NCBI GenBank assembly: GCA_963778555.1
Contig: CAVZUR010000004.1
Coordinates: forward strand, 101,112 to 165,111
From: Candidatus Moraniibacteriota bacterium
GTDB lineage: Bacteria; Patescibacteriota; Minisyncoccia; Moranbacterales; UBA1568
Length of the DNA: 64,000 bases
Reading direction: 5' to 3'
Positions 13,316 through 32,232 of this stretch are shown here, piece by piece. The position numbers were made by a program, and so were the translations under genes. How positions within the stretch are numbered: the stretch's first letter is position 1; each line of letters opens with the position of its first letter. The notes beneath the pieces are model-generated. The model searched no databases. It saw only the letters and a list, made by a program, of their open reading frames with translations, and was not told where the DNA came from.

Positions 13316-15966
<2,651 letters not shown>

Positions 15967-16937: not shown

Positions 16938-19900
16938 CTAGCGGCCCTGGGCGTAGAGGGCTTTAATCTCGGCGGCGGTGAGGATGCGGCTGTAGAGCCG
17001 GACTTCGTCGATGGTGCCGTCGAAGAAGCGCGTCGAGGTCGAATAACTGATGGCGAAATTCTCGGCCACATCAGTCATCGCTGTTCCGACCGGTGTGGTC
17101 AGTTCCGTGATGGTTGGAGCGACAACGCCGTTGATATAGAAGACGGGGTCATTCGCTGCTGAGGAGTTGTTGTACGTGACACAGGCATGCGTCCAGGTGT
17201 TGAGCGGGGCAGTATTACTCGTTGCCAGCCAGTCCCCGTCCGTCGTGGAGAAATACCGAAGGAACTCAAGACGAATCCCTGGACCCGTACTGTTGTCGAT
17301 AAAGAACTCCCAACCATTCGTACTCGATGATTTCCGCATGATGTTATCGAAATCGGCAGCCGTCACTGTCTCGGGATAAATCCAGGCACAACTCGTGAGA
17401 TTGACGATATCATCCATATTGGTGCCTGAGCCAGCCAATATATGATCATTCGTCCCATCAAAATTCACCCCCTGTCCGAGCTTCCCTGGAACCTTGAGCG
17501 GGCCATTGGTGAGGGTGCCCGTGTTCCTCGCTCCACTTCTGTCATACGCTGTCGTCGTGCTGTACATATCCTGGGCATTGAAGGACCAGTAGCCTTCAAG
17601 CGATGTATCGACGCCGGTGGGGGTAGTGAGGCGATAGAGGTTGGCGATCTCTTCCTGGAGAGAGCGCGGTCATACACCCGCGCTTCATCGAGGGAGCCAG
17701 CGAAGGGCACACCGTTGTCGGCTTCAGCGCCGAGACGGAAAGCCACCGCATTGGCCAGGGTGCCGATGTTTCCGATGGTGCCGGTATCGGTGGCGCCATT
17801 GGGAGCGCCATTGATGTAAAGCTCGGTCCCAGTCGCGGAGTCTTGATCCCAAACGAAGGCGAAGTGATTCCAACCCGCAGCGGTGAAGGTAGAGGCTGAA
17901 GTGACGGAGTACTCATCGACCGCATCCGAGACTTCGCAGATGAGGGCGTCGGCGGCGGAGATGTAGCAGAGATAGCCGGTATCAGCGGCGGTGATGCCGT
18001 TTCGTTTGGCGATGATGGTATCGTCGGTGGTGAAGGTAGAGCGGTTGAACCAGCCCGTCAGGGTGAAGTCTTCAGTATCGGCGAAGTCAAGAGTGGCCGT
18101 ATCGGCCGTGGTGGCATAGTCATCGGTGCCGTCAAAGGTGATGCCTGAGCCAATCTGTCCGGTGGTCCAGGTGGGGCCATTGGTGAGGGTGAGGGAAGCG
18201 ATGGCGTTGGTGGAGGAGTCAGCGGCGGCGGTACCGGTGTTCTCGTCGAGGGTGAAGTAGGCGGTGAGGCCAGAGTCGAGACGGCCGGTGCCTTGGGATT
18301 GGGAGACAGAGGAGTTCACCTTGTCGGGAGCGCTCTGGTCATACAGGGATTTGATCTCGGCAGCAGAGAGAAAACGATTGTAGACGCGGACTTCGTCGAT
18401 TTCACCGTCAAAGAACTCTGCCGCGGCAGTTTCAATGGCGCCGATACGAAAGCTCGAGGAAGCATCGGCAGGCGAAGTACCGACCGGCGTACTGTGTTCC
18501 AGCACCGGTACGGAAACACCGTTAATGAAAAAGGTTGGGTCATTGGCGACGGATGAATCATTGTATTCCACACAGACATGCGACCAGGCATTCAGCGGGA
18601 CCGCGTCATCGGGTGCAGCCCAGCGGCCGATAGTCGTCCCGAAGCCGACCCATAATTGCAGCCGATTCGGGCTGACAGTATCGCTGAATTCGAAAGTCCC
18701 ACCCCGTCCCAGCATCATCCTTGGACATGATATTGGCGTACGTGGCCGGTATCGAATCCGGATGAATCCAGGCGCAGGCGGTCAAGTTGGCGATATCGTC
18801 GAGACTCGTCCCTGAGCCAGCATTCACATAGTCTGCCGTCCCATCGAAATCAAGTGCTTGGCCGAGTCTGCCCGGTACCTTGGGCGGAGCGCTGACCAGT
18901 GTCCCCGTATTCCTCGCTCCGCTTCTGTCATACGCCGTCGTCGTGCTGTACATATCCTGCGCATTGAAGGACCAGTAGCCTTTCAAGCGCCGTATCGACA
19001 CCCGTCGGGGTACGGAGGCGGTAGAGATTGGCGAACTTCTTCGGCCGAGAGGAGCGCGGTCATAGACTCGGGTTTCATCGAGCGGAGCCAGTCGAAGGCA
19101 AACGGTTGTCGGCTTCAGCGCCGAGAGGAAAGCCACGCATTGGAAGGGTTCAGCCGCATCAGTATCCGACGGTGCCGGTATCGGTGTGCGTGCATTCGGT
19201 CAAGCGCCATTGAGGTAAAGCATCGGTATACAGTCACCGGAGTCTTGATCCCAGACGAAGGCGAAGTGATTCGAACGCCACAGACATGGCTCCAGGTATT
19301 GAGGCTGAGGTGGCGCCGACGTACTCATCGAGCCGCCATCCGAGACTCGAAAAGATTTGAGAGCATCTCAGCTTGATTACTCGATAGCAGAGATAGCTGG
19401 TATTTAACGGCGATCATACTGTATCGGCTTTGGCAAGAATGATGGTCATCGTCGGCAGCGGTGAAGGTAGAGCGGATAGAACCAGGCACACGTCAGGGTG
19501 AAGTCGTCAGATTATCGCAAAGCAAGGTGGGCGTATCCGAAAGTGATGCATAGTCATCGGTCCCATCAAAGGTCATGCCGGAGCCAATCTGACCGGTCAT
19601 CCAGGTCGGGCCACGGTGAGGGTGAGGGAAGCGATGGCGTTGGTACTGGAGTCAGCCGCGGCGGTACCGGTGTTCTCGTCGAGGGCGAAGTAGGCGGTGA
19701 GGCCAGAGTCGAGACGGCCGGTGCCTTGGGATTGGGAGACAGAGGAGTTCACCTTGTCGGGAGCACTCGTGGTCATAGAGGGCTTTGATCTCGGCGGCGG
19801 AGAGGAGGCGATTATAAACACGGACTTCGTCGATGGAGCCGTCGAAGAATTCGCTGAGATAAGTGCGCCGATGACAAGATTGGCTGCAGCATCGACATGT

Positions 19901-21259
19901 TGCTGTCCCTACCGGCACGTAAATAGCTCCGTAAAACGATACAGACGACGCCATTCATATACAAAACCGGGTCGTTGGCCAGCCGAGGAATCATTGTAGG
20001 TGACGCAGACATGTTGACCAGGCATTGATGTGGTTATCCCCCAGTTGGCCGTGAGCCAATTCGCATTAGTTCGTGGTAAAACTTCAAAATAGTATCCAGA
20101 GCATTCCCGACTAGCCACATTGCCGTAATCTGAAATGACCAGCCACGCCGATCTTGAATTACTTGGCAGCAATTTGAGCCCGAGGTAATAGGAATTGACT
20201 GTCCGGATAGATCCAGGCGCAGAACGGATAGGTTCACTAGATCATCGATGATAGCGGCTGATCCCGCATTCACCATAATCAGCCGTTCCATCAAAATTAA
20301 GCGCTTGGCCAAGTTTGCCTGGCACTTTTGGCGGGCCGCTCGTCAAGCGTCCCCGTGTTCCTCGCTCCGCTTCTGTCATACGCCGTGGTCGTGCTGTACA
20401 TATCCTGGGCATTGAAGGACCAATAGCCTTTCAAGTCCCGTATCGACGCCGGTGGGGGTAGTGAGGCGATAGAGGTTGGCGATCTCTTCTCCTGAGAGAG
20501 CGCGGTCATACACCCGCGCTTCATCGAGGGAGCCAGCGAAGGGCACACCGTTGTCGGCTTCGGCGCCGAGACGGAAAGCCACCGCATTGGCCAGGGTGCC
20601 GATGTTTCCGATGGTGCCGGTATCGGTGGCGCCATTGGGAGCGCCATTGATGTAAAGCTCGGTCCCAGTCGCCGAGTCTTGATCCCAGACGAAGGCGAAG
20701 TGATTCCAACCCGCAGCGGTGAAGGTAGAGGCGGAAGTGACGGAGTACTCATCGTGGCATCCGAGACTTCGCAGATGAGGGCGTCGGCGGCGGAGATGTA
20801 GCAGAGATAGCCGGTATCAGCGGCGGTGATGCCGTTTCGTTTGGCGATGATGGTATCGTCGGTGGTGAAGGTAGAGCGGTTGAACCAGCCGGTCAGGGTG
20901 AAGTCTTCAGTATCAGCGAAGTCAAGGGTGGCCGTATCGGCCGTGGTGGCATAGTCATCGGTGCCGTCAAAGGTGATACCTGAGCCAATCTGTCCGGTGG
21001 TCCAGGTGGGGCCATTGGTGAGGGTGAGGGAAGCGATGGCGTTGGTGGAGGAGTCAGCGGCGGCGGTACCGGTGTTCTCGTCGAGGGTGAAGTAGCCGGT
21101 GAGGCCAGAGTCGAGACGGCCGGTGCCTTGGGGGGTGGCAATGGAGGTATTGGTTTGCTGTCCGGCCCGAGCGGAGAAATACCAATAGCCAGCCCCCAAC
21201 CCTAGGAGAATGGCGATAATCCCTAGCCACTGCCATGTACGGCCGCTAGTATATGTCAT
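16938..21259 (-). CDS. giant surface protein with N-terminal TM anchor and tandem LamG_3 / concanavalin-like lectin domains; reading frame broken many times, middle repeat degenerate
   Basis: N-terminus MTYTSGRTWQWLGIIAILLGLGAGYWYF; recurring FDG(S/E)IDEVRVYNRALSAAEIKALY LamG_3 signature at the end of each repeat; ORF fragments 20297-21373, 17465-18718, 16938-17567 plus many short ones. Confidence 0.6.
17470..21130. repeat. tandem direct repeat, period about 1.4 kb, about 2.6 copies (copy 1 about 17470-18860, copy 2 about 18860-20300, copy 3 about 20300-21130); copies 1 and 3 are near-identical over about 760 bp (17540-18297 vs 20375-21130), copy 2 is highly divergent
   Basis: Landmark ...gtcatacgc(t/c)gtcgtcgtgctgtacatatcctgggcattgaaggacca... 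recurs near 17541, 18926 and 20375; a long identical stretch accgttgtcggcttcagcgccgagacggaaagccaccgcattggccagggtgccgatgtttccgatggtgccgg occurs at about 17700 and about 20536. Confidence 0.8.
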
Positions 21260-21525
21260 AGAGCTAGACCCGTTAGAGACAGGAAGCGTTTCAATCGATT
21301 CTTTAGGTAGCGTTTTCCCATACCAGTCTTTAGGTACTTTTCTCGAGTGAAAGCATCGTGCACATCGATACAAGCTTCATAATAAATGATAGCAAATGGA
21401 CCTCGGCCGTTGGTAGATGATACTTTTCCAGCAGCATGCTCATTGAAACGCTTCCGCATGTCTTCGGTACAGCCGGTATACCATTTTCCATCCTTTTTGC
21501 TTTTGAGCACGTAGGTGTAAAACAT
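21256..21525 (-). CDS. GIY-YIG nuclease family protein
   Basis: MFYTYVLKSKKDGKWYTGCTEDMRKRFNEHAAGK GIY-YIG motif; the stop overlaps the ATG of the giant surface protein (ATGA). Confidence 0.75.
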   Translation of the reverse strand: MFYTYVLKSKKDGKWYTGCTEDMRKRFNEHAAGKVSSTNGRGPFAIIYYEACIDVHDAFTREKYLKTGMGKRYLKNRLKRFLSLTGLAL

Positions 21526-21831
21526 AGCTGTCTCTAACGGGGCGAGGCGATGGCGAGGGCGCCTAAGATGAGGCCGATGTATTGGTAGGTACGATACCGA
21601 GTGAGGGACATGTGAGGTGAGGGATGAGGGACTAGGGGTGGAGAACAAGAGAAACAGGTTCCCAAGCGAGGGAGTGTGTTGGTTCTAGTTTATCATCTTA
21701 TCGAGAACGCCACATCCTCCCCACCCCTCACTTTCCACTGTTTCGACGTATTCCCACGGTCGTAGGAATAATAGAGATTACATTTTGTATGAGTATGATG
21801 AAAAACTCAGAGCCCGGTCAAAAAAATCTAC

Positions 21832-22077
21832 CTAGAGCTGGCCACTGTAAACACTCGAGAGGCCGGACAAGCTGGAGAGAATAAACGGCACCGCGAACAT
21901 GAGTACGACCAGGGGCAAGAGGACAACGGCGAGCTGCATGATGAAGCTCCAGAGCATGTACTTGCGCGTCTTCTCCACAGCCGCGTGAATGAGCTCAAGT
22001 TTTTCGTCCTGCGCTTTGATGGCAGACAGGAGAGCGGATTCATCCATAAGGATAGATAGCGCAATAGACTTACTCAC
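21832..22077 (-). CDS. small membrane protein (81 aa, C-terminal TM)
   Basis: ORF with hydrophobic C-terminal segment; its start overlaps the end of the upstream gene by 8 nt (translational coupling). Confidence 0.45.
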   Translation of the reverse strand: MSKSIALSILMDESALLSAIKAQDEKLELIHAAVEKTRKYMLWSFIMQLAVVLLPLVVLMFAVPFILSSLSGLSSVYSGQL

Positions 22078-22912
22078 TTATTGTAGCAGCATCGAGCGCA
22101 GCCGATGGCAGATTCGATTCACCCCCTCCCAAGCTGGGTTCAATTGGCGTAATTTCTGGCAATGGAATATTCAGCGGTTCGATCGGGAGCGCGTCGGGGC
22201 CAGCCGGCGGATCAATGGGCGGCGGTAGCAAATCTAGTGGGAGTACCAAAAGTAGCGGCTCAGTACCATCGGACGGACCCGGCCCGCTGGCATCCGGAAT
22301 CGTCTCCGCTGACTTCACAGCCGGTGCGCCGCCAATTGTCAGGGTCAGGTCTGGGAGCGCCGCCTCATCATCCCAGCCCGGATCCGTAGCTTCATACGGT
22401 GCTTGCCAAGCCAAGAAGGTGAAATGGACAATGCAGGATACACCAGTATCGAAAGACGCTTCCGCTGGCAGAGAAAAGATGAACTGCCACAGTTCGTCGC
22501 TACTCGGTGAGAGCAGGCTTCCGTTCACTACTCCAATACCCGCCACACTGCCGGCATACGCGGTCGAGCCAGCACGCAACGCCGAAATTTGGAGCGCCGC
22601 GCAAACACCCGCATCGCCCGTAGTTGAGACAATCGAATGGTACCGGAAGGTATTCGCGCCCTGATTCTCGACCGTGCCGCCATACTCGACGCTGCCGCCA
22701 GCAATGATTTCTGCCGGTGCGACAGGATTGCCAACCGCCCCGATCGCTGAAAGATCGATACTCCCGCCATTGATCGCGTTCATACCGGACAACGCCGAAG
22801 CCGTGTAGAGTGACCACGTATCATGCACCACCATGACCAACACAAACAACCCGACAATGCCCAGGGAAACGGTGCCAAGCGGGCGATGAATTGTATGTTT
22901 GTTTTCGGGCAT
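22070..22912 (-). CDS. membrane-anchored secreted protein with Pro-rich C-terminus (candidate anchoring or accessory protein of the SipW locus)
   Basis: N-terminal TM LGIVGLFVLVMVV, Gly/Ala-rich globular region, PPPIDPPAGPDALPIEPLNIPLPEITPIEP tail; role inferred from position only. Confidence 0.55.
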   Translation of the reverse strand: MPENKHTIHRPLGTVSLGIVGLFVLVMVVHDTWSLYTASALSGMNAINGGSIDLSAIGAVGNPVAPAEIIAGGSVEYGGTVENQGANTFRYHSIVSTTGDAGVCAALQISALRAGSTAYAGSVAGIGVVNGSLLSPSSDELWQFIFSLPAEASFDTGVSCIVHFTFLAWQAPYEATDPGWDDEAALPDLTLTIGGAPAVKSAETIPDASGPGPSDGTEPLLLVLPLDLLPPPIDPPAGPDALPIEPLNIPLPEITPIEPSLGGGESNLPSAALDAATISE

Positions 22913-22927
22913 AACGATTTCGGACGA

Positions 22928-23575
22928 CTAGACGATTTTCCGCCGCCGAATCGGGGCGGGTGGCGGGGTGACAGTCGGGCGAGGCGGCGCGACCGATCCA
23001 GCATAGACGGTTTGGGAGAAATTCACGTTTTTGACCTCGGCAACGGTTTCAGCGGCGATCGGCTGGCGGCGCTGTCGCAAGAGCCGCCTGGCTTCAGCGG
23101 CGATGGAAATGAATTCGCTCAGGATAATGAGTGCCGCCGGCACCACGATCAGCCAGATGAAGCCCGTCTTGGTCTGGGCATAGGCCACGGGATAGCCGAG
23201 GTATGGAATCGCGAGCAGCGTTTTGCCGACGATGTCTTGACGCGCCACGGTGACAGGATCCGGATCCTCATTGGCATCGCCTTGAGTGAGGAACGTCTGA
23301 CCGGTCGCCGTGTCGCGCCGCTCGATGATGCGGTGGGTGACCGACTGCTTGTCGCTCGTCGCGACGGTCACGATATCTCCGACCGCGTAGGCGGGCCGCG
23401 CCGAGACGAAGATGAGACTTCCCGTCCGAATCGCCGGCTCCATCGATCCGGACCGGACCGTGAAAAGCTTGATCGTGTTCGGTAATGGCAAGAGCGACGA
23501 GGCCATCACCAAGACGAAGCCGATGACGATGACCGCCATGAGTCCTTGCACGATGGAACCGAGGCGCTTCAGCAT
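22928..23575 (-). CDS. sipW: signal peptidase I, SipW type (S26B, archaeal/ER-like)
   Basis: VRSGSMEPAIRTGSLIFV catalytic Ser box, N-terminal TM, C-terminal TM; 215 aa. Confidence 0.85.
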   Translation of the reverse strand: MLKRLGSIVQGLMAVIVIGFVLVMASSLLPLPNTIKLFTVRSGSMEPAIRTGSLIFVSARPAYAVGDIVTVATSDKQSVTHRIIERRDTATGQTFLTQGDANEDPDPVTVARQDIVGKTLLAIPYLGYPVAYAQTKTGFIWLIVVPAALIILSEFISIAAEARRLLRQRRQPIAAETVAEVKNVNFSQTVYAGSVAPPRPTVTPPPAPIRRRKIV

Positions 23576-23590
23576 AGGCGACGGAAAACG

Positions 23591-25037
23591 TTATGGCGCG
23601 AAGGGTGTCGGGTTATTGCGATGTTGTTCGACTTCGAATTTGATATCGGCTTCGAAGATGTCGGTCTGCGCCTCATTCCCGGTCGCGATGGGCAGATTCC
23701 AGCCGATACCGAAGTAGTACGTCGTCGATGCGGCCATGCGGCCGTCTTGAGCGAGGCCATTACAGAGCGTGTAATTCGTGTGTCCATCTGGGATCGTGCA
23801 GCCATGCGCCACGTAGGCTGCCGCCAAACCCTGCCAGATATTATGCGTTTCGCTCGGAGTATCCACCGCGCCTGGAGCAACCAGTACCATCTCATCACCC
23901 TGTTGGATATTGTCACCCTCGCCGAGGTCGGTGCCCTTGCCTTGGAACCCGGGCGTGGCACCCTCGTCCAGCCAGATCGAGAAATTCAGGTTCTGGCGCA
24001 ATTCTCCGAGTCCGACGCCAGGGTACCGCGCAGTTGCCACTTTCCGCCACCTGCTCGGAACTGGTGCAGGTATTGTCATCATCGGCGGTCACGTTGACCA
24101 CCATCCGTCCCCACGCATCATTGTTGTAGACATGGAGCGACACGGTATCCTCGCCCACATCCCCTGGTTTCACATCATCGAAGTTGAAGAATTTATGCAC
24201 ACCGTTCTGGAGGTCGGTCAGATCCCACGTCCCGTCGCAGGGCTGGCCCACTAATTCGCCGCTCACCGACGTCGGGCATTCGAGCAGATGGACATCAACG
24301 GCATCGAGAAATGTCCCGAGTGAATTCTCGGTCCCGAGATCCGCAAACGAGATCTCGGTCGAGGCGCCGGTCGCGAAGAAATCATAGGTATGCAGACTCC
24401 AGTCGATTGATCCGCCGCCCGCGCTCGACAATGTGTCGAGCAGCAAGCCGTTTGCCTTCACCTCGAGTTCATTCTCCGTCGCGGCGGTATTGGGCCGCGG
24501 CGCAAACTGGAAGGAGAGACGGTATTTCTTGCCCGCGACAGTCGGGATGGACTGCGCGATGCGAATGGAGGCTGGTTCACCACTCAAGGGATCGCTCGGA
24601 CCACCCCAATCAGAATCAAGTTCCGTATACTGGTCGCCTTCGAACGCGGCGCCCAAGACGCCTTCATGGTATTCGATCGTCGCGACTGCCGGCTTGCCGC
24701 TCGGATCCACCCACTGCACGTCCCATACCAGGCCGCTCGCACCGTCAGGAAACACCTCCCACTGGTTCGGGTCGGTCACTTCCGGATTCTCAAAACCGCC
24801 GTTGACGATGAGATTACTGCCGACGGCATGACAAGGCGCGCCTTCGAGCGCCCAGACACCGCCGGTACAGACCAGCCCATTATAGTGCGACTCGCTGTCG
24901 ACTTTCAGATCAAGCGCTCCCGCGGTGAAGAGATTGCCCGTCGAAGTCTCGGTATCCGAGAAAAACGCATAGGTTCCCCCGCCGACCGCGGCCGCCGCGG
25001 CCAAGATGATGAATGAGCTTTTGGCTATTTTCCACAT
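23591..25037 (-). CDS. TasA/camelysin-like secreted protein paralogue 1 with SipW-cognate signal peptide and an inserted carbohydrate-binding-like jelly-roll domain; one frameshift near 23913-24082
   Basis: MWKIAKSSFIILAAAAAVGGGTYAFFSDTETSTGNLFTAGALDL; insert starting NGGFENPEV; shared core FFNFDDVKPGDVGEDTVSLH and a C-terminal VEQHRNNP motif. Confidence 0.75.
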
Positions 25038-25086
25038 ACGCTTTCGATTTAGGATTATTCCCTCCGGCCCCGCAACCACGTCCGCG

Positions 25087-26421
25087 CTACGGTGATACGC
25101 CTGTCACACTCACTCCATCGATATACGCATGATTGGTCCCGTTCGTCCCGACGAGGACAAAGCGGACTTTGACACTTGGCTTATTGTCAGCCGCAGGCGA
25201 GAGTGAGAACGTCTTGGTCGTCCAGCCCGACTCGCCGATGACGGTCTCGAGCGTGGTCCACGACGTTCCGCCATTGACCGAATACTCAACCGTCAGCGTT
25301 TGGGGATCGACGGCACCGCCCGTATCGTCTGTCTTACGGTCATACTTGAGCACGATAGTGTGATAGCCGAGCGTGCTGAAGCCCGGGGTCACGAGCGACT
25401 CGGTGTGGCCGTTCGAACTCGAGGCATCGAGATCGGCATTCTTGGTACACTCCCGCTTCTCTTCATCTTTGTCATCGTCATACCCGCCTCGATTGGTCCA
25501 CTTTTTGTGCCACGAACGTTCGTACTCCTTGTCTTTGGATTTCACGCACTGGTTGAAGTCCTCAGAGAAGAGGGTCGAAGTCGTCGTTTCCGGCGGCTCC
25601 TCGCCGCTGCCACCGCTGCACAGGAATGAATTGTTGCGCGACTGCGCTACCGTAAAGGACACATCCGCCGTGATACCATCGCTTTGAACATGATTGCCGA
25701 CGGGCGCGCCATCACAGGTGAAGCCTGTTCCACGGACCAATGGGCCGTTGGTGCTCCCCGCCAATTTTCCTTTGCCATCTTGCGCTTTCGGCGCCCCGGC
25801 CAAAATGCCGAAACACCAGGCCTTGCCGATATACTTTGTCACCTCTGGCGCCAAGGGCCCCGATCCGCCCCAAACATTGTGTGTAGAATCCGCCAGTGGC
25901 CACAAGGCACCGTCAAAGATATCTTTCGCCAAACCTTCCTTGAAAATCGTTTCTCCGCTCTCATACACATTGTCGCCATCGTCCGCCCAGAAAGAGAAGT
26001 ACAGATGGTTCTGCAATTCGCCGTCATTGGCGCCAGTGGTCGGATCGACGGACACTTCCGGTTCGGGCTGACCATTCTCCGGCGTCGATTGGAAATCAAT
26101 CGCCATGCAGCTCCAGGCCTTGTTATTCAAAACATGCAAGGAAATCGTATCCTCGCCGATATCCCCCGGCTTCACGTCGAGAAAATTGAAGAAGAGTTTG
26201 CCCGCGAGCTTGCCGAGTTGCCACGATGTCGCCGGACTGGCAACGAGTTTGCCGTCATCATTCGTGACATAGGATTCATTATCGACTTTCAGCTCGATCA
26301 CGCCCGAGGCAAAGGTATTGCCGACAGACGTCTCTTGGTCGACGAAGAAGGAGTACGTCCCCGCCCCGGCGGCGGTCGCGACCAGGAGTACCGTGAAGAG
26401 TCCTTTCGTTATCTTCCACAT
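25087..26421 (-). CDS. TasA/camelysin-like secreted protein paralogue 2 (intact, 444 aa) with C-terminal beta-sandwich-like extension
   Basis: MWKITKGLFTVLLVATAAGAGTYSFFVDQETSVGNTFASGVIEL; core FFNFLDVKPGDIGEDTISLH ... AQSRNNSFLC; about 150-aa extra C-terminal domain. Confidence 0.8.
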   Translation of the reverse strand: MWKITKGLFTVLLVATAAGAGTYSFFVDQETSVGNTFASGVIELKVDNESYVTNDDGKLVASPATSWQLGKLAGKLFFNFLDVKPGDIGEDTISLHVLNNKAWSCMAIDFQSTPENGQPEPEVSVDPTTGANDGELQNHLYFSFWADDGDNVYESGETIFKEGLAKDIFDGALWPLADSTHNVWGGSGPLAPEVTKYIGKAWCFGILAGAPKAQDGKGKLAGSTNGPLVRGTGFTCDGAPVGNHVQSDGITADVSFTVAQSRNNSFLCSGGSGEEPPETTTSTLFSEDFNQCVKSKDKEYERSWHKKWTNRGGYDDDKDEEKRECTKNADLDASSSNGHTESLVTPGFSTLGYHTIVLKYDRKTDDTGGAVDPQTLTVEYSVNGGTSWTTLETVIGESGWTTKTFSLSPAADNKPSVKVRFVLVGTNGTNHAYIDGVSVTGVSP

Positions 26422-26507
26422 ACGCTACCGTTACAGTTTATTTCGGTTTCCCCCGTGCCACCGCCGGGATTGTTCCGGCGGATGGCATGAGGCAAAGATC
26501 ATTCAGA

Positions 26508-27984
26508 TTAGTTCTCGAAGTCGGTCGTTTCGCCGTTGAATTCGACCCAGTCCACGAAGCTGTTTTCACCAATCGGACCAGGGTGGCCCACCCGCACGCC
26601 GAGGAAGGAGTCGGTTGAGCGCGTTTCCGCGCCAGGATAATCGGCTAGGATCTGATTCCAGGTTTTCGGTGTCGTACCAGGCTGCACGTTCGGAGCCGGC
26701 CAATTGGCGCCGGAGTAGGTCCACAGGGCCGTGCCACCGTTGATAGCATCCACGGTCGTCCACGTGTTGACGACTACGCCGGTCGGCACCATCACGAGAC
26801 GGCGCTGAAACGTGTCGCTATTGTTGAAGTCGATATTGAAGTGGAGGAAGGGCGTCTCGGCGGAAGCTGAGGCGTCATAAATCCGATACTTCAAAGAATT
26901 AATATTAGCGAGCTTCACATCCTTGTACTTGTAGGTCGCGATGTTGTAGCGCGGATTGATACCAGTATCTAGGGTCATCTGTGCCGCGCCAACCGCTTCC
27001 GGACCAGCGACGATGTTATTCACGCCGCCGGTTCCGCTGAATTGGTTGAGCGTCATGACTGTGTCGTTGGTGTCATTGTAGAAGAGCCACTTGTTCACAT
27101 TGCCGATAACATCGCCAAAGCTCTGGGCCAGATCGACCCGAGCGAACTTCCACGATGCCGCTTTGGCCGACAAAGGTCGGGAGCGAAGAACAAAGAAAGC
27201 CGGGATTATTGCGAGTCTGCACGGCATAGAACGAGACATCCGCGAGGATACCGTCGGTCTGCGCGATGTTATTGTTGCCCGAGCCGTTGCAGGCATAGCC
27301 AGTACCGCGGACAAGCGGTCCATTACTCCCGGTCTTGCCCAGCCCGTCTTGATTGATTGGCACACCGATCAGGGTCCCAAAGCACCAGGCCTTGCCGACA
27401 TAGCGCGTCGAGTTGCCGAGTATCGGCGTCCCGTTCAAGGAATCCGCGACCGGCACCCAGACGCCATTCAAGAGATTGCTCGCGGTCCCGACCCACTGCG
27501 TGATCTGGGACTCATCCGCCTCATAGACATTGTCCCCGTCGTCGTTCCAGAACGCGAAGTTGAGGAAATTCTGCAATTCTCCACCCTGTGCACCATCCGT
27601 CACGTCGCCCGCGTCGCCTTCCGGTTCATTGATGCCGTTATCCGGCTTGGCCGTGATGGCTGCGGTCATGCAGGCGTAGGCGTCATTCGTGCCCGGATGA
27701 AGCGAGATAGTGTCCTCGCCGATGTCGCCAGGCTTCAGGTCGCTGAAACTGAAGAACAGTTGATTGGTCACATCCGACAAAGCCCACGAGTTCGTCGGGC
27801 TCGCCACCAAGACACCCGCGTTATTCGTCACATAGCTCTCATTGTCGATCGTCAAATCGATGTCTCCGGCCGTGAAAGTGTTACCGGTCGACGTTTCACT
27901 GTCCGAAAAGAACGAATATGTCGCTCCGCCCACCGTAATCGCTACCGCCAGTACGACGAGACTGCTTTTCAGGATTTTACCCAT
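26508..27984 (-). CDS. TasA/camelysin-like secreted protein paralogue 3; the C-terminal extension domain is probably joined through a frameshift near 27130-27190
   Basis: MGKILKSSLVVLAVAITVGGATYSFFSDSETSTGNTFTAGDIDL; core FFSFSDLKPGDIGEDTISLH ... VQTRNNPGFLC; downstream overlapping ORF 26508-27365 encodes a further domain. Confidence 0.7.
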
Positions 27985-28446
27985 ATGCGCGCTTACGGAT
28001 TATGAACCTCTGATCCCGCGCCACTCCGGGACGATCCCGGAATGACGCAAGGTGAGAAGCGGCTTCTCCCCTCCCAGAAGAAACTCTCAGAAAACCTAGA
28101 CTCGGCTGCCAAGAGAACTACAACTGCTGGATGTACAAAGTTCGTAATTCGCACGTGACGTTTCACCGGCTAGACATTATTGTTGCGGTACCGTATCGCC
28201 GACTTCCGGCGTCGCATTCCGCTGAACGTGCATAGACAGGTTAGGATTTCCCGCCAGGATCACTCAGAATAGACCTCGGACAACGTATAGACACCAGTGG
28301 TAAGTAGCCATGTGACGTCGCATTACCTGTCAATACCACAGATGAGCGCCTGGGCCCATCAGCTGTAAGTGTGAAGTCAGCGTCAACGCCTACGATTTCT
28401 GGCTGGAAGTAACAATCTTATCAAGGTCACTCGTACGCTGTTTCGT

Positions 28447-29377
28447 CTACACCCGCGGAGTGCAGAGGAAGTTCGGGTTGTTGCGGAACTGCTCGACCCG
28501 GAAGGCCACGGTCGCTTCGAACATGTCCGTCTGGACGATATTCCCCAAGGTGGAACCATCACAGGTGATGGTGTTGAGTGGGAGACTCACTACCTGTGTC
28601 CCCGCACACCAGGCGAGACCGATGTAGTTCGTCACACCGCCGTCGATCGGACCGACCGCCGGGAAGGTGCTGGAATCGGCCAGGGTATAGGTCTTGCCAC
28701 CGAGCACATCGCTCGCGGGACCTGACTGGTTCGAGAAGAGGAGCGGTTCCACTTCCTCACCCTGCCACACATTGTCACCTTCACTCGCGTCATTGTTCCC
28801 TTGATCTGCTCCGAATTCTGCCAACCGGGGTCGATTACCCTGATCGAGCCAGGCCGCGAATTTGACGTTTTGCGCCAATTCGCCGTCCAAGAGGTCCGCA
28901 TCTGGCTCAGCCGACCGTATCGAGCTCCGCCACTTCGGCGTCTTCCGGCTCCGTGACCGTCACATCGTCGTTCTTCGTCAGCGTCACATCGATACAAGCC
29001 CAGGCTGGGTTGTTGTTGATGTGGAGCGAGATGGTGTTCTCTCCCTGGTCTCCCGGCTTGATGTCGGAAAAGTTAAAGAACTTTTGGGCGCCCAAATCGG
29101 TCGCCGCCCAAGTACCGTCACAGACGGTCCCCGCCGCAGGATAATGCCCGGCTGCCGGTGTAAATCCGACTTCTGGCTGCCACCAGTAATTCCCAATGGC
29201 TTCGTCGGGATTCTCCACGCAGACCATGTTGTTATAGTGCTGCTCGCTATCGACCGTCAGGTCGATCGCCCCGGCGGTGAAGGTGTTGCCGGTCGAAGTC
29301 TCGGTGTCCGAGAAGAATGAGTAGGTCGCTCCGCCGACGGCCACCGCGACCGCGAGAACCACAATCCGCTTTTCCAA
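28447..29377 (-). CDS. TasA/camelysin-like secreted protein paralogue 4; one frameshift near 28890-28907
   Basis: MEKRIVVLAVAVAVGGATYSFFSDTETSTGNTFTAGAIDL; core FFNFSDIKPGDQGENTISLH ... VEQFRNNPNFLC. Confidence 0.7.
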
Positions 29378-29883
29378 ATCTTTTGCATATGGTTTTACTA
29401 TTTGTTTACGACGTTCTTCTCTCAGCCTGACCCCGGCCGCACATCGACCTGTCCGCTGCTCTGAATGTTTGAGTCAGAGCCAACGGATCCACGCAGTTCT
29501 CCCGCCTCGCTTCTTGAGAATCCGTTCAACTGAAACAGGGAACGGGTTCCGATAGAATCGGATCGAGAGAAAGGGGTATCGGTTTGAGAGGAACGTTTTC
29601 TGTCTGTCTCTTTGTTTTCGCTTTCTCGCACTCGACCGGTGCATTTCTATTGCGGATATAAGAAGTCACAAGCGCCCTCCTTGCTCTTGTTGACTTTGAT
29701 TTTTATGTTTCTTCTCCCTCGATGATTTTTTCGAGCTGAGAAGTATTGTTTGCCCTCCAACAAACGGCTATCGCTTACAGAATAGAACGAACTGAAAATA
29801 AGTCAACACGGAAAAAATATTTCTGACGCCTTCAGCCTCGCGGCAGAATACAAAAATAGTACGCAATGAAAAAAACTGGACGT

Positions 29884-30814
29884 TCAAAACCCGACGAGCT
29901 GTACTTCCTCGCGTAACTGGACACCTGAATCGGTTCGGACCCGTTGTTTCACCAGACTCGCCAGCATGATGACGTCTTCGGTCGTAGCGGTGCCCGTATT
30001 CACGAGATAGTTCGGATGGCGCGGACTGATCTGGGCGCCGCCGACTTTCTCGCCGCGCAGCCCCGCGCGATCGATGAGCCAACCGGCCGGGAGTTTGCCG
30101 TCTTTCGCCGCCATTCCGGTATCCTGGGCGAATTCCGTCCGAAGTGTCTCGTCCACGACCGTCGGATTCATGAAGAATGATCCGGCACACAACGCCTTCT
30201 GCGGATGTTTGGCTTCGCGCTTGGCCAATGTCTCCTCTGAAATGCGATGCAATTCCGATGCGTCGCCCTCCGCGAGACGCAGCTGCGCTGAGAGGATGAC
30301 GAATTCCGGATGCGTTTTGAAAAAGCTGGTCCGATACTGAAAGTCGCATTCCGACTGGGAAAACTCTTTCAATGCTCTCGATTTGCGATCATAGGTTTTC
30401 ACGTTGACCACCCGATTGCCGATCTCCATCCCGAAAGCCCCAGCATTGCCCGCGCAGTGCGCCGCCCACAGACCCCGGGATGCCGGCGAGCCGCTCCAAA
30501 CCGGCGAGACCATGACTATTGACCAGCTCGACGAGCGCAAGCAGATTCGCCCCCGCATCAGTGTAGATGTCCTGACCCGCGATCCGCGACGCGGCATTTG
30601 CGACCCGGATCACAAGCCCCCGGAAACCACGGTCAGCGATGAGGAGATTGCTCCCGCCAGAAAAGACGAAAGTCTTCAGTCCATTGTGCTCCGCGTATTC
30701 CAGCGCTTCGATGAGCTCCGGTGCCGTCGTCACGGAAACGAAAAAATCGGCCGCCCCGCCGAGGCGGAAGGTAGTAAACGGCGCCAACGGGACCTCTCGT
30801 TCGATGGATAGCAT
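29884..30814 (-). CDS. murB: UDP-N-acetylenolpyruvoylglucosamine reductase (MurB), one frameshift near 30390-30600
   Basis: N-terminal PLAPFTTFRLGGAADFF...SGGSNLL and C-terminal MurB domain in the adjacent frame. Confidence 0.85.
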
Positions 30815-30833: not shown

Positions 30834-32232
30834 TTATTTCTGCAGGATGGCGGCGGCGATTTGCCAGACATCGCCTGCGCCCATGGTGATGATAACATCC
30901 CCGGCCCGCATCTCGCGAACAATTTTTTCAACAAGCGCCGCGCGGTCCGGCGCATATTCGGCTTTCCCGGGCACGTATTGATTGATACGGTCGACCAGAT
31001 CCAGTCGCACTGACGCCGCCATGCTGCTCGCGGGCACTGCCATAGATGTCGAGGATCGCGACGCTCTCCGCCCGCTCAAAACTGGACGCGAATTCCTCCA
31101 GGAGCGCTTTTGTCCGCGTGAACGTATGCGGATGAAAGACGACCAGAAGACGATTGTCCGGATACAAGTCATGAAAGGCGGCCAGGGTCGCCTGAATCTC
31201 GGCCGGATGATGGGCGTAATCGTCGTAAACCAAAGCACCTTTTTTCTCGCCGAGGTATTCGAAGCGTCGTTTGGTACCAGAAAAGGCGGCGATCCCTTTC
31301 CGGACTGCCGTGCTGTCGAGTTTGAGGTGAAGTGCAACAGCGATCACTGCGAGTGCGTTTTCAACATTGTGCCGACCGGCGAGCTGAAGACGGAACGGGC
31401 CGAGCCGTCCGCCCGCATATTCGACCGAGAACTCCTGGAGCGCACTGTGCTGCCGCTCTGCTTCCGGAAGAATTCGGTAATCCACGGCGCGAACACTATT
31501 TCCCTCAAGAAAACCATAGGTGTACCGCGGCGCTGACGCCGACCGCGAAAGAAATTCCGCCCGGGCATGGTCGCCGCACACGACGAGAAATCCATGCTTC
31601 GGCACCCGCGCAATGAAAGCTGAAAAGACCTTTTCATACGCATCGACTGTGGGGAAAAAATCCGGGTGATCCCAATCGACGCTCGTAACGATGGCACCGA
31701 ACGGATGATAAAGCGCAAGCTTGTTCTGGTACTCATCTGCCTCAATCACGAACAGCGGGCCGCGGCCAGACAACGCGCTTCCGCCCCAGGAGCGGATCTC
31801 ACTTCCGATGATCGCCGACGGATCAGTCCCTGCGGTACGGAGGACATCGGCCAAGAGCGCGGAGGTCGTCGTTTTACCGTGCGAACCGCAGACCGCGATG
31901 GTCATCCGTTCCCGGGTCAGCGCTCCCACGGCTTCCGGATAGGAATAGAGGGGCTTCCCGCTCGCTTGCGCGGCCGCGAGTTCAGGATTATTTTCCGCCG
32001 TATACGCGGTCGAATAGACAAACACGTCGACTGTCTTCGGCAGATTCGCGGGATCAAACGGCGTTTTGACCAGAATCTTGAGCCGCTTCAAAATGGCATC
32101 CGTATAAAAGACTTCCGCCGTATCCGAGCCGGTGACTGTTTTTCCGAGACCCGAGAGCAGCTCGGACAACGCCGCCATACCCGCTCCCTTGATTCCGATG
32201 AGGTGCCAGCGGCGATACTCGAGAAAGGCCAT
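30834..32232 (-). CDS. murC: UDP-N-acetylmuramate--L-alanine ligase (MurC), C-terminal frameshift
   Basis: HLIGIKGAGMAALSELL Mur ligase N-terminus; C-terminal DVIITMGAGDVWQIAAAIL lies in the frame of ORF 30834-31337. Confidence 0.85.

What the first reader, a model, noticed from the sequence alone, without database searches (positions are those of the whole stretch)
21832..29377. SipW-type signal peptidase locus with four TasA/camelysin-like paralogues: candidate fibre or pilus-like assembly system
Seen in sequence: 22928-23575 encodes an S26B signal peptidase with the SipW Ser box VRSGSMEP. Upstream of it on the same strand lie four co-directional genes. Each begins with M-K-x-hydrophobic stretch-GG(A/G)TY(S/A)FF(S/V)D(T/S/Q)ETS(T/V)GN(T/L)F(T/A)(A/S)G.(I/L)(D/E)L. 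This is the SipW-cognate class signal peptide and TasA N-terminus. All four share internal motifs FFNFxDxKPGDxGE(D/N)T(I/V)SLH and (R/H)NNPxFLC. Downstream lie a Pro-rich membrane-anchored protein and an 81-aa membrane protein, and these two genes overlap by 8 nt, consistent with translational coupling. Established knowledge: the Bacillus tapA-sipW-tasA operon and camelysin use this peptidase and substrate pairing to build extracellular fibres. Inference: a four-paralogue array with two accessory membrane proteins suggests a heteropolymeric surface fibre with a distinct anchor. This is not a described system for this type of genome.
Basis: partly seen in the sequence, partly recalled or inferred. 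Interest (0 to 1): 0.85.

Follow-up and report, generated by a model that had tools for sequence, protein, structure and literature searches.

The report
TasA-like fibre operon in CPR bacterium
This ultra-small (CPR/Patescibacteria) bacterium carries an operon of four TasA-like secreted proteins, a dedicated SipW-type signal peptidase and a TapA-like partner. The operon recurs across CPR genomes, probably builds an adhesive surface fibre, and has not been studied experimentally there.

Summary
On the minus strand, 29388 to 22070, lie four TasA-superfamily paralogues (A-D), an S26B SipW-type signal peptidase and a 280-aa partner, X.

Main findings:
- **Peptidase and substrates.** HMMs confirm the SipW-cognate signal peptides and the peptidase.
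- **Frameshifts.** A, B and D are broken by 1-nt frameshifts at short G/C runs. SecA, MurB and MurC in the same window are also split, so these are most likely assembly errors. Intact orthologues of B and D exist elsewhere.
- **Partner X.** X carries the same N-terminal motif followed by an unrelated domain and a disordered tail, as TapA does. In 12 of 67 related loci the peptidase gene continues into a membrane helix and this motif; 5 of the 12 carry a recognisable X domain.
- **81-aa ORF.** It is not a conserved part of the locus.
- **Distribution.** The order T(2-4)-SipW-(X) recurs in 77 CPR species genomes. The family has about 760 clusters at 50% identity.

Most likely this is a donor-strand-exchange fibre decorated with lectin-like modules. 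Polymerisation is inferred, not shown. The literature only notes PF12389 hits in Patescibacteria. I rate it a new variant of a known kind, of moderate interest.

The parts
28447..29388 (-). Paralogue A: TasA-like core only, about 313 aa after repair. It is the first gene, separated from B by a 462-nt gap.
   Evidence: TIGR04088 29.4 bits and PF12389 39.5 bits. The ATG at 29388 and the first 9 codons are conserved at nucleotide level with L001/L003. One G is probably missing near 29361, and one base is extra at about 28909.
29389..29630 (-). Conserved non-coding leader or promoter region, about 240 nt, upstream of gene A
   Evidence: It aligns with the region upstream of the first T gene in L001/L003, with long identical blocks. 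There is no Rfam match. Its function is unknown.
26508..27984 (-). Paralogue B: TasA-like core plus a 210-aa C-terminal domain of unknown family. It is 491 aa after removing one G of GGG at 27137-27139.
   Evidence: TIGR04088 29.4 bits. An intact 495-aa orthologue in L038 matches both halves (66% and 75% identity) across the frame change.
25087..26421 (-). Paralogue C: intact, 444 aa. TasA-like core plus a C-terminal CBM/reelin-subrepeat-like jelly roll.
   Evidence: PF12389 22.6 bits. AF2 models have pLDDT 77-79. The core's top fold hit is the TasA fibre 8AUR. The C-terminal domain hits reelin, CBM22 and the Eph ligand-binding domain. An identical protein is in the public collection, and the locus's peptidase and X trace to the same 402,909-bp NCBI contig.
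23591..25037 (-). Paralogue D: TasA-like core with a DUF642/choice-of-anchor-C-like insertion after the N-terminal strand. It is 481 aa after removing one C of CCC at 24021-24023.
   Evidence: TIGR04088 30.9 bits. TIGR04362 E 7e-18 (below cutoff) and DUF642 E 6e-6. An intact 489-aa orthologue in L001 spans the frame change.
22928..23575 (-). SipW-type (S26B, ER/archaeal-type) signal peptidase I, 215 aa, starting 15 nt after D
   Evidence: TIGR02228 98.3 bits (cutoff 51.85). NF046067 (Bacillus SipW) 102.6 bits, below its cutoff of 190. Across 68 sequences S42-G-S44-M-x-P47, H81-R82, G99-D-A-N102 and D106 are invariant or nearly so. Two hydrophobic helices lie at 11-29 and 140-158.
22070..22912 (-). 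X: 280-aa TapA-like partner. It has an N-terminal membrane helix, a degenerate SipW-type/donor-strand-like motif, a domain of about 140 aa with two invariant Cys, and a Pro-rich disordered tail.
   Evidence: X follows SipW in at least 39 related loci. Alignment A3. hhalign against the paralogue profile gives 94% probability over the N-terminal 49 columns only. Fused to SipW in 5 loci; 7 further long SipW ORFs carry the motif without a recognisable X domain. No Pfam, NCBIfam or PDB sequence match.
21832..22077 (-). 81-aa small membrane protein ORF, adjacent but probably not part of the system
   Evidence: Only one homologue was found in 81 related loci. It lies about 6 kb from the T genes in L050. 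That homologue supports a start at ATG 22044.

Best explanation
This is a CPR-lineage version of the TasA/SipW/TapA extracellular fibre system.

Shown:
- Four paralogous secreted proteins (A-D) carry SipW-dependent-type signal peptides.
- Their core domain is a distant homologue of TasA.
- A dedicated S26B signal peptidase is encoded 15 nt downstream of D.
- Protein X shares only the N-terminal signal and strand motif with the paralogues.
- The gene order T(2-4)-SipW-(X) is conserved across Parcubacteria and Microgenomates.

Inferred:
- After Sec export, the peptidase cleaves roughly after GGATYS. This exposes the conserved FFSDTETSTGNTF... segment, which aligns with the TasA donor strand (residues 28-38).
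- That strand inserts into the groove of the next subunit (donor-strand exchange) to build a fibre.
- B, C and D carry lectin/CBM-like extra domains, so the fibre would display binding modules. These would suit attachment of an episymbiotic cell to a host or a matrix.
- X has a donor-like strand but no TasA-type core. It would prime or anchor the first subunit, as proposed for TapA. Recurrent SipW fusions to a downstream membrane helix and this motif (12 of 67 loci, 5 with a recognisable X domain) suggest this happens at the peptidase.
- The frameshifts in A, B and D are assembly errors, not gene decay.
For: Substrate signals and peptidase:
- TIGR04088 and PF12389 hits above cutoff.
- Peptidase above the TIGR02228 cutoff, with invariant Ser, His and Asp boxes.

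Homology to TasA:
- hhalign of the family profile against B. subtilis TasA gives E 4.9e-5 over TasA residues 5-106. The aligned region spans the signal peptide, the donor strand and the KPGD strand. The TasA sequence was verified against PDB 8AUR.
- AF2 core model has pLDDT 77 and pTM 0.74.
- Foldseek against PDB: the only hit with E<=1e-3 is 8aur_A, the TasA fibre (E 4e-4, probability 1.0).
- The putative donor strand (residues 28-40) is the low-confidence, unpacked part of the monomer model. Its sequence is nevertheless among the most conserved in the family.

Partner X:
- X shares only this N-terminal segment with the paralogues. This parallels the TapA-TasA relationship described in PMC9674648.

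Synteny:
- 67 of 81 loci carry SipW and at least 39 carry X. All genes are co-directional.
- No other conserved neighbour was found.
- 12 SipW-substrate-motif fusions.

Gene integrity:
- Intact orthologues of B and D exist.
- Essential genes SecA, MurB and MurC are also split in this window.
Against: - Polymerisation was not tested. Only monomer predictions were possible.
- hhalign probability is only 68%, and the PF12389 match covers only profile positions about 5-53 of 196.
- The family profile finds nothing in PDB by sequence.
- Large extra domains on most subunits have no counterpart in TasA and might hinder packing.
- X has no detectable similarity to TapA beyond its organisation.
- X in this window has a degenerate motif.
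- No expression or localisation data exist for any CPR member.
Confidence: 0.6

Rival explanations
1. The proteins are non-polymerising secreted or surface lectin-like proteins. A-D would use the SipW-type signal only for export and processing, then act as monomeric adhesins or carbohydrate-binding proteins. X would be one more such substrate.
For: - Extra domains resemble CBMs and lectins: reelin/CBM22-like and DUF642/choice-of-anchor C.
- In the close relatives L001-L004 the locus is followed by GH81 and GT2 genes.
- No oligomer evidence exists.
Against: - About 20 residues after the predicted cleavage site are conserved in all paralogues and in X. This is more than a cleavage site needs, and the segment aligns with the TasA donor strand.
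- The TasA fibre is the top hit in both fold searches.
- Every experimentally characterised family cited here polymerises (TasA, BsaA, tafi, AbpA, AbpX).
Confidence: 0.2
2. The proteins form a surface lattice or sheath rather than a pilus-like fibre. The subunits would assemble, possibly in a calcium-dependent way, into a para-crystalline layer or matrix around the cell, as AbpX does.
For: - An invariant acidic motif W-x-D-D-G-D-N-x-x-E-x-x-E and the motif KPGDxGEDT suggest cation binding.
- AbpX-type TasA-superfamily proteins form calcium-dependent lattices (bioRxiv 10.64898/2026.01.04.697558).
Against: - Calcium binding was not tested.
- An AbpX lattice is itself built from donor-strand fibrils, so this is a variant of the best explanation rather than an exclusive rival.
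- The dedicated peptidases of AbpX loci have ten membrane helices. This one has two.
Confidence: 0.1
3. The locus is decaying in this organism. The frameshifts in A, B and D would be real and the genes would be pseudogenes.
For: Three of four paralogues are interrupted.
Against: - Essential genes in the same window show the same defect. SecA is split over at least two ORFs, MurB over two ORFs, and MurC has its C-terminus in another frame.
- All the shifts are 1-nt length errors at short G/C runs.
- There are no other disabling mutations, and identity to intact orthologues is high on both sides of each shift.
Confidence: 0.05
4. The proteins are camelysin-type metalloproteases, as the Pfam name Peptidase_M73 suggests.
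For: The Pfam family name, and invariant His96, Glu90 and Asp91 in the core.
Against: - The match to PF12389 covers only the signal and N-terminal strand.
- There is no HExxH-type motif.
- The characterised family members cited here are structural fibre subunits.
Confidence: 0.03

Closest known systems
Bacillus subtilis tapA-sipW-tasA operon (TasA fibre, PDB 8AUR)
   Same: - A dedicated S26B signal peptidase sits in the operon.
- The substrates carry the SipW-cognate signal.
- The conserved post-cleavage N-terminal segment aligns with the TasA donor strand.
- The KPGD strand is shared.
- The core is a jelly roll whose best structural match is the TasA fibre.
- An accessory protein shares only the N-terminal strand motif and has a separate domain plus a disordered tail.
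   Different: - There are 2-4 paralogues instead of one major subunit.
- The core is about 15% identical to TasA and has an insertion of about 30 aa, four invariant Cys and an acidic DDGDN motif.
- Most subunits carry extra lectin/CBM-like domains.
- The gene order is T...T-SipW-X.
- X has no detectable sequence similarity to TapA.
- The peptidase fails the Bacillus SipW equivalog cutoff.
- The host is a CPR bacterium.
Clostridium perfringens sipW-bsaA-bsaB-bsaC (PMC11580942)
   Same: - SipW is paired with more than one TasA-like paralogue and a further secreted protein with a different domain.
- A donor strand at residues 28-38 carries an Asn at position 35 in an xVxNxF context, as in paralogue C here.
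- The authors already propose heteropolymers for multi-paralogue operons.
   Different: - The BsaA lock uses an N35-E56-K74 isopeptide triad. Whether the CPR family has equivalent Glu and Lys residues was not established.
- BsaC is a VWA protein, not X-like.
- The peptidase gene comes first in that operon.
Haloarchaeal Tat-fimbriae, 'tafi' (TafA/TafC/TafE; PMC11821415, PMC12337348)
   Same: A TasA-superfamily strand-donation filament built from several different subunits. Tafi loci commonly include a predicted tip adhesin and a membrane anchor.
   Different: Export is Tat-dependent, the hosts are archaea, and the accessory genes are unrelated. Here the signal peptides look Sec/SipW-type.
Archaeal bundling pili AbpA/AbpB and the calcium-responsive AbpX clade
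   Same: Jelly-roll subunits that polymerise by donor-strand complementation. AbpB is proposed as a TapA-like initiator. Acidic residues act in assembly.
   Different: - These families are much more divergent in sequence.
- AbpA has no dedicated peptidase.
- AbpX loci have a peptidase with ten membrane helices.
- The published superfamily map does not include Patescibacteria.

Membership tests
TasA/camelysin superfamily (PF12389; TasA fibre subunit) | SipW-dependent-type signal peptide and N-terminal motif (TIGR04088) | tested here: met
   A 29.4, B 29.4 and D 30.9 bits against a cutoff of 19. C misses TIGR04088 but passes PF12389 at 22.6 against 22.5.
TasA/camelysin superfamily (PF12389; TasA fibre subunit) | Match to the whole Pfam domain (196 positions) | tested here: not met
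   Only profile positions about 5-53 align in all four paralogues. The family profile finds no PDB sequence.
TasA/camelysin superfamily (PF12389; TasA fibre subunit) | Sequence homology of the mature domain to TasA | tested here: inconclusive
   hhalign gives probability 68%, E 4.9e-5 and 32% identity over 96 columns (TasA 5-106). This reaches the KPGD strand and the two strands after it, but not the rest of the domain.
TasA/camelysin superfamily (PF12389; TasA fibre subunit) | TasA-type jelly-roll fold | tested here: met
TasA/camelysin superfamily (PF12389; TasA fibre subunit) | Polymerisation by N-terminal donor-strand exchange | not testable with these tools
   No multimer prediction was available. 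The indirect evidence is the conserved N-terminal strand, which is unpacked and low-confidence in the monomer model.
Biofilm matrix protein TasA, Bacillus equivalog (NF046066) | Score above the equivalog cutoff | tested here: not met
   The best score is 15.7 bits (D) against a cutoff of 450.
S26B ER/archaeal-type signal peptidase I (TIGR02228), SipW-like | Family HMM above cutoff | tested here: met
   98.3 bits against 51.85.
S26B ER/archaeal-type signal peptidase I (TIGR02228), SipW-like | Ser, His and Asp catalytic boxes, with His in place of the LepB-type Lys | tested here: met
   SGS44MEP, TH81R and GD100AN...D106 are invariant or nearly so in 68 aligned sequences. The assignment of catalytic roles rests on prior knowledge of SipW and SEC11.
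Bacillus SipW equivalog (NF046067) | Score above the equivalog cutoff | tested here: not met
   102.6 bits against a cutoff of 190. It is SipW-like, not an orthologue by NCBI's criterion.
TapA (TasA anchoring/assembly protein) | N-terminal segment similar to the donor strand of the major subunit | tested here: met
   hhalign of X against the T profile gives 94% probability and E 1.2e-7, over the N-terminal 49 columns only. Four of 16 X members hit TIGR04088.
TapA (TasA anchoring/assembly protein) | Sequence membership in a TapA family model or similarity to the TapA structure | tested here: not met
   No NCBIfam or Pfam hit and no PDB sequence hit. X works like TapA at best; it is not a member.
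TapA (TasA anchoring/assembly protein) | Encoded in the same operon as the peptidase and the fibre subunit | tested here: met
   X starts 15 nt after SipW here. It follows SipW in at least 39 loci and is fused to it in 5, with 7 further motif-bearing fusions.

The most novel reading that the evidence does not exclude
CPR/Patescibacteria, whose only recognised appendages are type IV pili, may widely build a second, TasA-type fibre. It would assemble by donor-strand exchange and be heteropolymeric, with subunits carrying interchangeable lectin-like modules. A nucleator often fused to its own signal peptidase would prime it. An isopeptide involving the invariant donor-strand Asn35 might lock it covalently. 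The fibre would serve as the host-attachment organelle of these episymbionts.
Probability: 0.3. Interest if true: 0.75.

Novelty: new variant of a known kind. Interest (0 to 1): 0.55.

Why it matters
CPR bacteria make up a large share of bacterial diversity and live attached to other cells, yet their attachment machinery is poorly known beyond type IV pili. A compact operon conserved across the radiation gives a concrete, testable candidate for a surface fibre or adhesin system. It consists of a dedicated peptidase, 2-4 TasA-like subunits with shuffled binding modules, and a TapA-like primer.

The recurrent fusion of a signal peptidase to a substrate-like protein is unusual. It could show how such fibres are nucleated at the membrane. 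The clade is also absent from the published TasA-superfamily map read here, so adding it would fill a gap in the evolutionary picture linking bacterial and archaeal donor-strand filaments.

Tried and rejected
- **Exact-protein look-ups.** Look-ups for the window's SipW and paralogue C returned no contig. The source organism is therefore known only as a CPR genome with a 402,909-bp NCBI contig.
- **PDB sequence search with the family profile.** It found nothing.
- **Fold search with the two-domain model of C.** The C-terminal jelly roll dominated the results. A core-only model was needed.
- **Iterating a profile from full-length X.** It ran away into the paralogues and into low-complexity tails. 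I solved this by iterating on the X domain alone.
- **Large-database search with the X alignment.** It gave only 5 hits and no informative domains.
- **Positional orthology of the four paralogue types.** Best-hit typing across loci gave no stable order. I reject the idea of four universal specialised subunits.
- **Phase variation as the cause of the frameshifts.** The tracts are only 2-3 nt long and housekeeping genes are affected too, so I reject it.
- **Programmed +1 frameshifting at the in-frame TGA of A.** The other shifts have no stop codon and essential genes are also hit, so I reject it.
- **Rfam.** No structured RNA in 21000-30500.
- **Promoter and terminator scans.** They gave nothing convincing.
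- **Mapping the BsaA isopeptide triad onto this family.** I had no BsaA sequence, so this stays a lead.

Full report
**Observation**

From 5' to 3' on the minus strand:
- A: 29388-28447
- B: 27984-26508
- C: 26421-25087
- D: 25037-23591
- a signal peptidase: 23575-22928
- a 280-aa protein, here called X: 22912-22070
- an 81-aa ORF: 22077-21832

Intergenic distances are 462 nt (A-B), 86 nt (B-C), 49 nt (C-D), 15 nt (D-peptidase) and 15 nt (peptidase-X).

HMM scans confirm the annotation.
- The peptidase scores 98.3 bits on TIGR02228, the ER/archaeal-type signal peptidase I (cutoff 51.85). It scores 102.6 bits on the Bacillus SipW equivalog, below that model's cutoff of 190.
- A, B and D pass TIGR04088, the SipW-dependent-type signal peptide. 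All four pass PF12389, with C borderline.
- Across 68 aligned peptidases the Ser box SGSMxP, the His box HR and the Asp box GDAN...D are invariant or nearly so. Two hydrophobic helices flank the catalytic domain.

**Frameshifts**

Three paralogues are not single ORFs.
- D changes frame at a CCC run (24021-24023). An intact 489-aa orthologue in L001 (78% and 72% identity) aligns across the break.
- B changes frame at a GGG run (27137-27139). This joins its core to a 210-aa C-terminal domain. An intact 495-aa orthologue in L038 aligns to both halves.
- A changes frame at about 28909, next to an in-frame TGA. It has also probably lost a G near 29361. The upstream ATG at 29388 and its first nine codons are conserved at nucleotide level with relatives.

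Repaired lengths are A 313, B 491, C 444 and D 481 aa.

The same window has SecA split over at least two ORFs, MurB split into an FAD-domain ORF and a C-domain ORF, and the end of MurC in another frame. Its LamG genes are fragmented as well. Essential genes share the defect and all the shifts are 1-nt errors at short G/C runs. I therefore attribute them to the assembly, not to biology.

**What the paralogues are**

Paralogue C has more than 1,200 relatives in the large protein collection. Every source name shown is CPR (Parcubacteria, Minisyncoccia, Nomurabacteria, Taylorbacteria) apart from one NCBI label, 'Acetobacteraceae bacterium', which NR gives as a Candidatus lineage. An exhaustive profile search finds 760 clusters at 50% identity with E<=1e-30. 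Their lengths range from 208 to 992 aa, and the conserved core is almost always at the N-terminus.

Invariant positions include:
- the N-terminal T-x(9)-S-x-G-N-T-x(3)-G
- KPGDxGEDTxSxH
- WxDDGDNxxExxE
- four Cys

Pfam recognises only the first 50 or so residues. A profile-sequence alignment (hhalign of the family profile against the single TasA sequence) extends further, over TasA residues 5-106 (E 4.9e-5, probability 68%). That region covers the signal peptide, the donor strand (TasA 28-38) and the KPGD strand. I checked my TasA sequence against PDB 8AUR and 5OF1 first.

An AlphaFold model of the core (pLDDT 77, pTM 0.74) has the TasA fibre chain 8aur_A as its best hit in both searches.
- Foldseek: the only hit at E<=1e-3.

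The segment that aligns with the TasA donor strand is the low-confidence, unpacked part of the monomer model.

The extra domains look like lectins or CBMs.
- C's C-terminal domain matches reelin subrepeat B, CBM22 and Eph ligand-binding domains.
- D has a DUF642/choice-of-anchor-C-like insertion.
- B's C-terminal domain has no family assignment.

**The partner X**

X has no Pfam, NCBIfam or PDB sequence match. A domain-restricted iterative search finds it directly after the peptidase in 39 related loci. The alignment shows, in order:
- a basic N-terminal leader
- a membrane helix
- a motif SVGGTxSYFxDxExSxGNxLxA
- a domain of about 140 aa with two invariant Cys
- an acidic, Pro-rich tail

hhalign against the paralogue profile gives 94% probability, but only over the N-terminal 49 columns. 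Four of 16 X members hit TIGR04088.

This is the relationship reported between TapA and TasA. There, similarity is confined to the donor strand, and TapA is proposed to donate the first strand (PMC9674648; PMC10151520).

In 12 of 67 related loci the peptidase ORF continues into a third membrane helix followed by this motif. Five of these have a recognisable X domain. That amounts to an enzyme fused to a substrate-like protein.

In this window X's motif is degenerate (HDTWSLYTASALSGMNAINGGSIDL), so X may stay membrane-tethered.

**Context and conservation**

A scan of one genome per species found 77 loci. The informatively named records are CPR (Kaiser-, Taylor-, Vogel-, Zambryski-, Lloyd-, Moran-, Portnoy-, Woese- and Levybacteria, among others). 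Six machine-named 'TPA_asm' records carry proteobacterial labels (Gammaproteobacteria, Pseudomonadales, Desulfobacterales). I regard those labels as unreliable but did not check them.

Gene order is uniformly T(2-4), then SipW, then X where detectable, all on one strand. No other gene family recurs near the locus. Typing the paralogues by best hit shows no stable set of four types. Extra domains are shuffled between loci. This points to lineage-specific duplication and module exchange, as is common for adhesins.

The 81-aa ORF has a single homologue. It lies about 6 kb from the T genes in a Kaiserbacteria contig and supports the ATG at 22044. The ORF is real but not part of the system, and the 8-nt overlap is doubtful.

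**Mechanism**

The peptidase-substrate pairing, the homology to TasA and the conserved operon are shown. The following steps are inferred:
1. The peptidase cleaves about where TasA is cleaved (GGATYS | FFSD...).
2. The N-terminal strand is donated to the next subunit.
3. The resulting fibre displays lectin-like modules.
4. X primes or anchors it.

The rivals are monomeric secreted lectins, an AbpX-like lattice, real gene decay and a camelysin-type protease. They are weighed in the structured fields.

**Comparison and novelty**

The closest systems are:
- B. subtilis tapA-sipW-tasA
- C. perfringens sipW-bsaA-bsaB-bsaC, whose authors already suggest heteropolymers for multi-paralogue operons (PMC11580942)
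- haloarchaeal tafi
- archaeal AbpA/AbpB and AbpX

For CPR I found only one sentence noting PF12389 homologues in Patescibacteria (PMC9245690). The 2026 superfamily map does not mention them. Searches combining TasA or SipW with CPR terms found nothing further.

The locus is therefore a new variant of a known kind. It is a distinct clade found across the CPR loci sampled, with modular subunits and peptidase-primer fusions, and it has not been characterised experimentally. The principle is established, the heteropolymer idea has been published, and the key step, polymerisation, is untested here.

Noticed in passing
window 13929-15966 (secA), 29884-30814 (murB), 30834-32232 (murC): Essential genes are split by frameshifts into overlapping ORFs in different frames. 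SecA_DEAD, P-loop and wing domains fall in separate ORFs. The MurB FAD and C domains are separated. The end of MurC is in another frame. The assembly appears error-prone at short homopolymers.
   Followed up: partly
window 16938-21373, minus strand: A cluster of Laminin_G_3 (concanavalin A-like lectin) surface-protein genes lies just downstream of the locus. It contains repeated segments (for example GYWSFNAQDMYSTTTAYDRSGARNTGTL occurs twice) and several frame breaks. This may be a second set of adhesin-like genes.
   Followed up: partly
window 29389-29630, minus strand; L001 about 2000-2260; L003 about 150-405: A non-coding region of about 240 nt upstream of the first paralogue is conserved in blocks between this genome and relatives. 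There is no Rfam match. It could be a long 5' leader or a regulatory element.
   Followed up: partly
L016, L017, L018, L023, L036, L052, L067, L035, L050, L051, L007, L022 (SipW ORFs): In these loci the signal peptidase ORF runs on into a further membrane helix and a SipW-cognate motif (GGTxSYFxDxExSxxN). This is an apparent fusion of the enzyme to a substrate-like protein.
   Followed up: partly
window 21832-22077; L050 1568-1774: The small membrane protein of 68-81 aa has a conserved EKTRKY motif. It has a homologue in a Kaiserbacteria contig in an unrelated position. Its function is unknown.
   Followed up: partly
L001-L004, downstream of the X gene, and L001-L002, upstream of the first paralogue: In the closest relatives (79% identity) the locus is followed by GH81 (beta-1,3-glucanase-like) and GT2 cellulose-synthase-like genes. 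In L001 and L002 it is preceded by an AbiEii gene (with AbiEi in L001). In this window the flanks are instead the mur/ftsW cluster and a GIY-YIG gene (21256-21648).
   Followed up: no
paralogue family alignment A1/A2 (positions of paralogue C): Invariant Asn35 sits in the donor-strand context xVxNxF, at the same numbered position as the isopeptide-forming Asn35 of C. perfringens BsaA. Lys84, Glu90 and Asp91 are also invariant. Whether they form a lock was not tested.
   Followed up: no
L036 12902-15097; P0275: Some long X or SipW-X proteins carry a lamin-tail domain (PF00932) after the X domain. This is another example of module accretion in the system.
   Followed up: no
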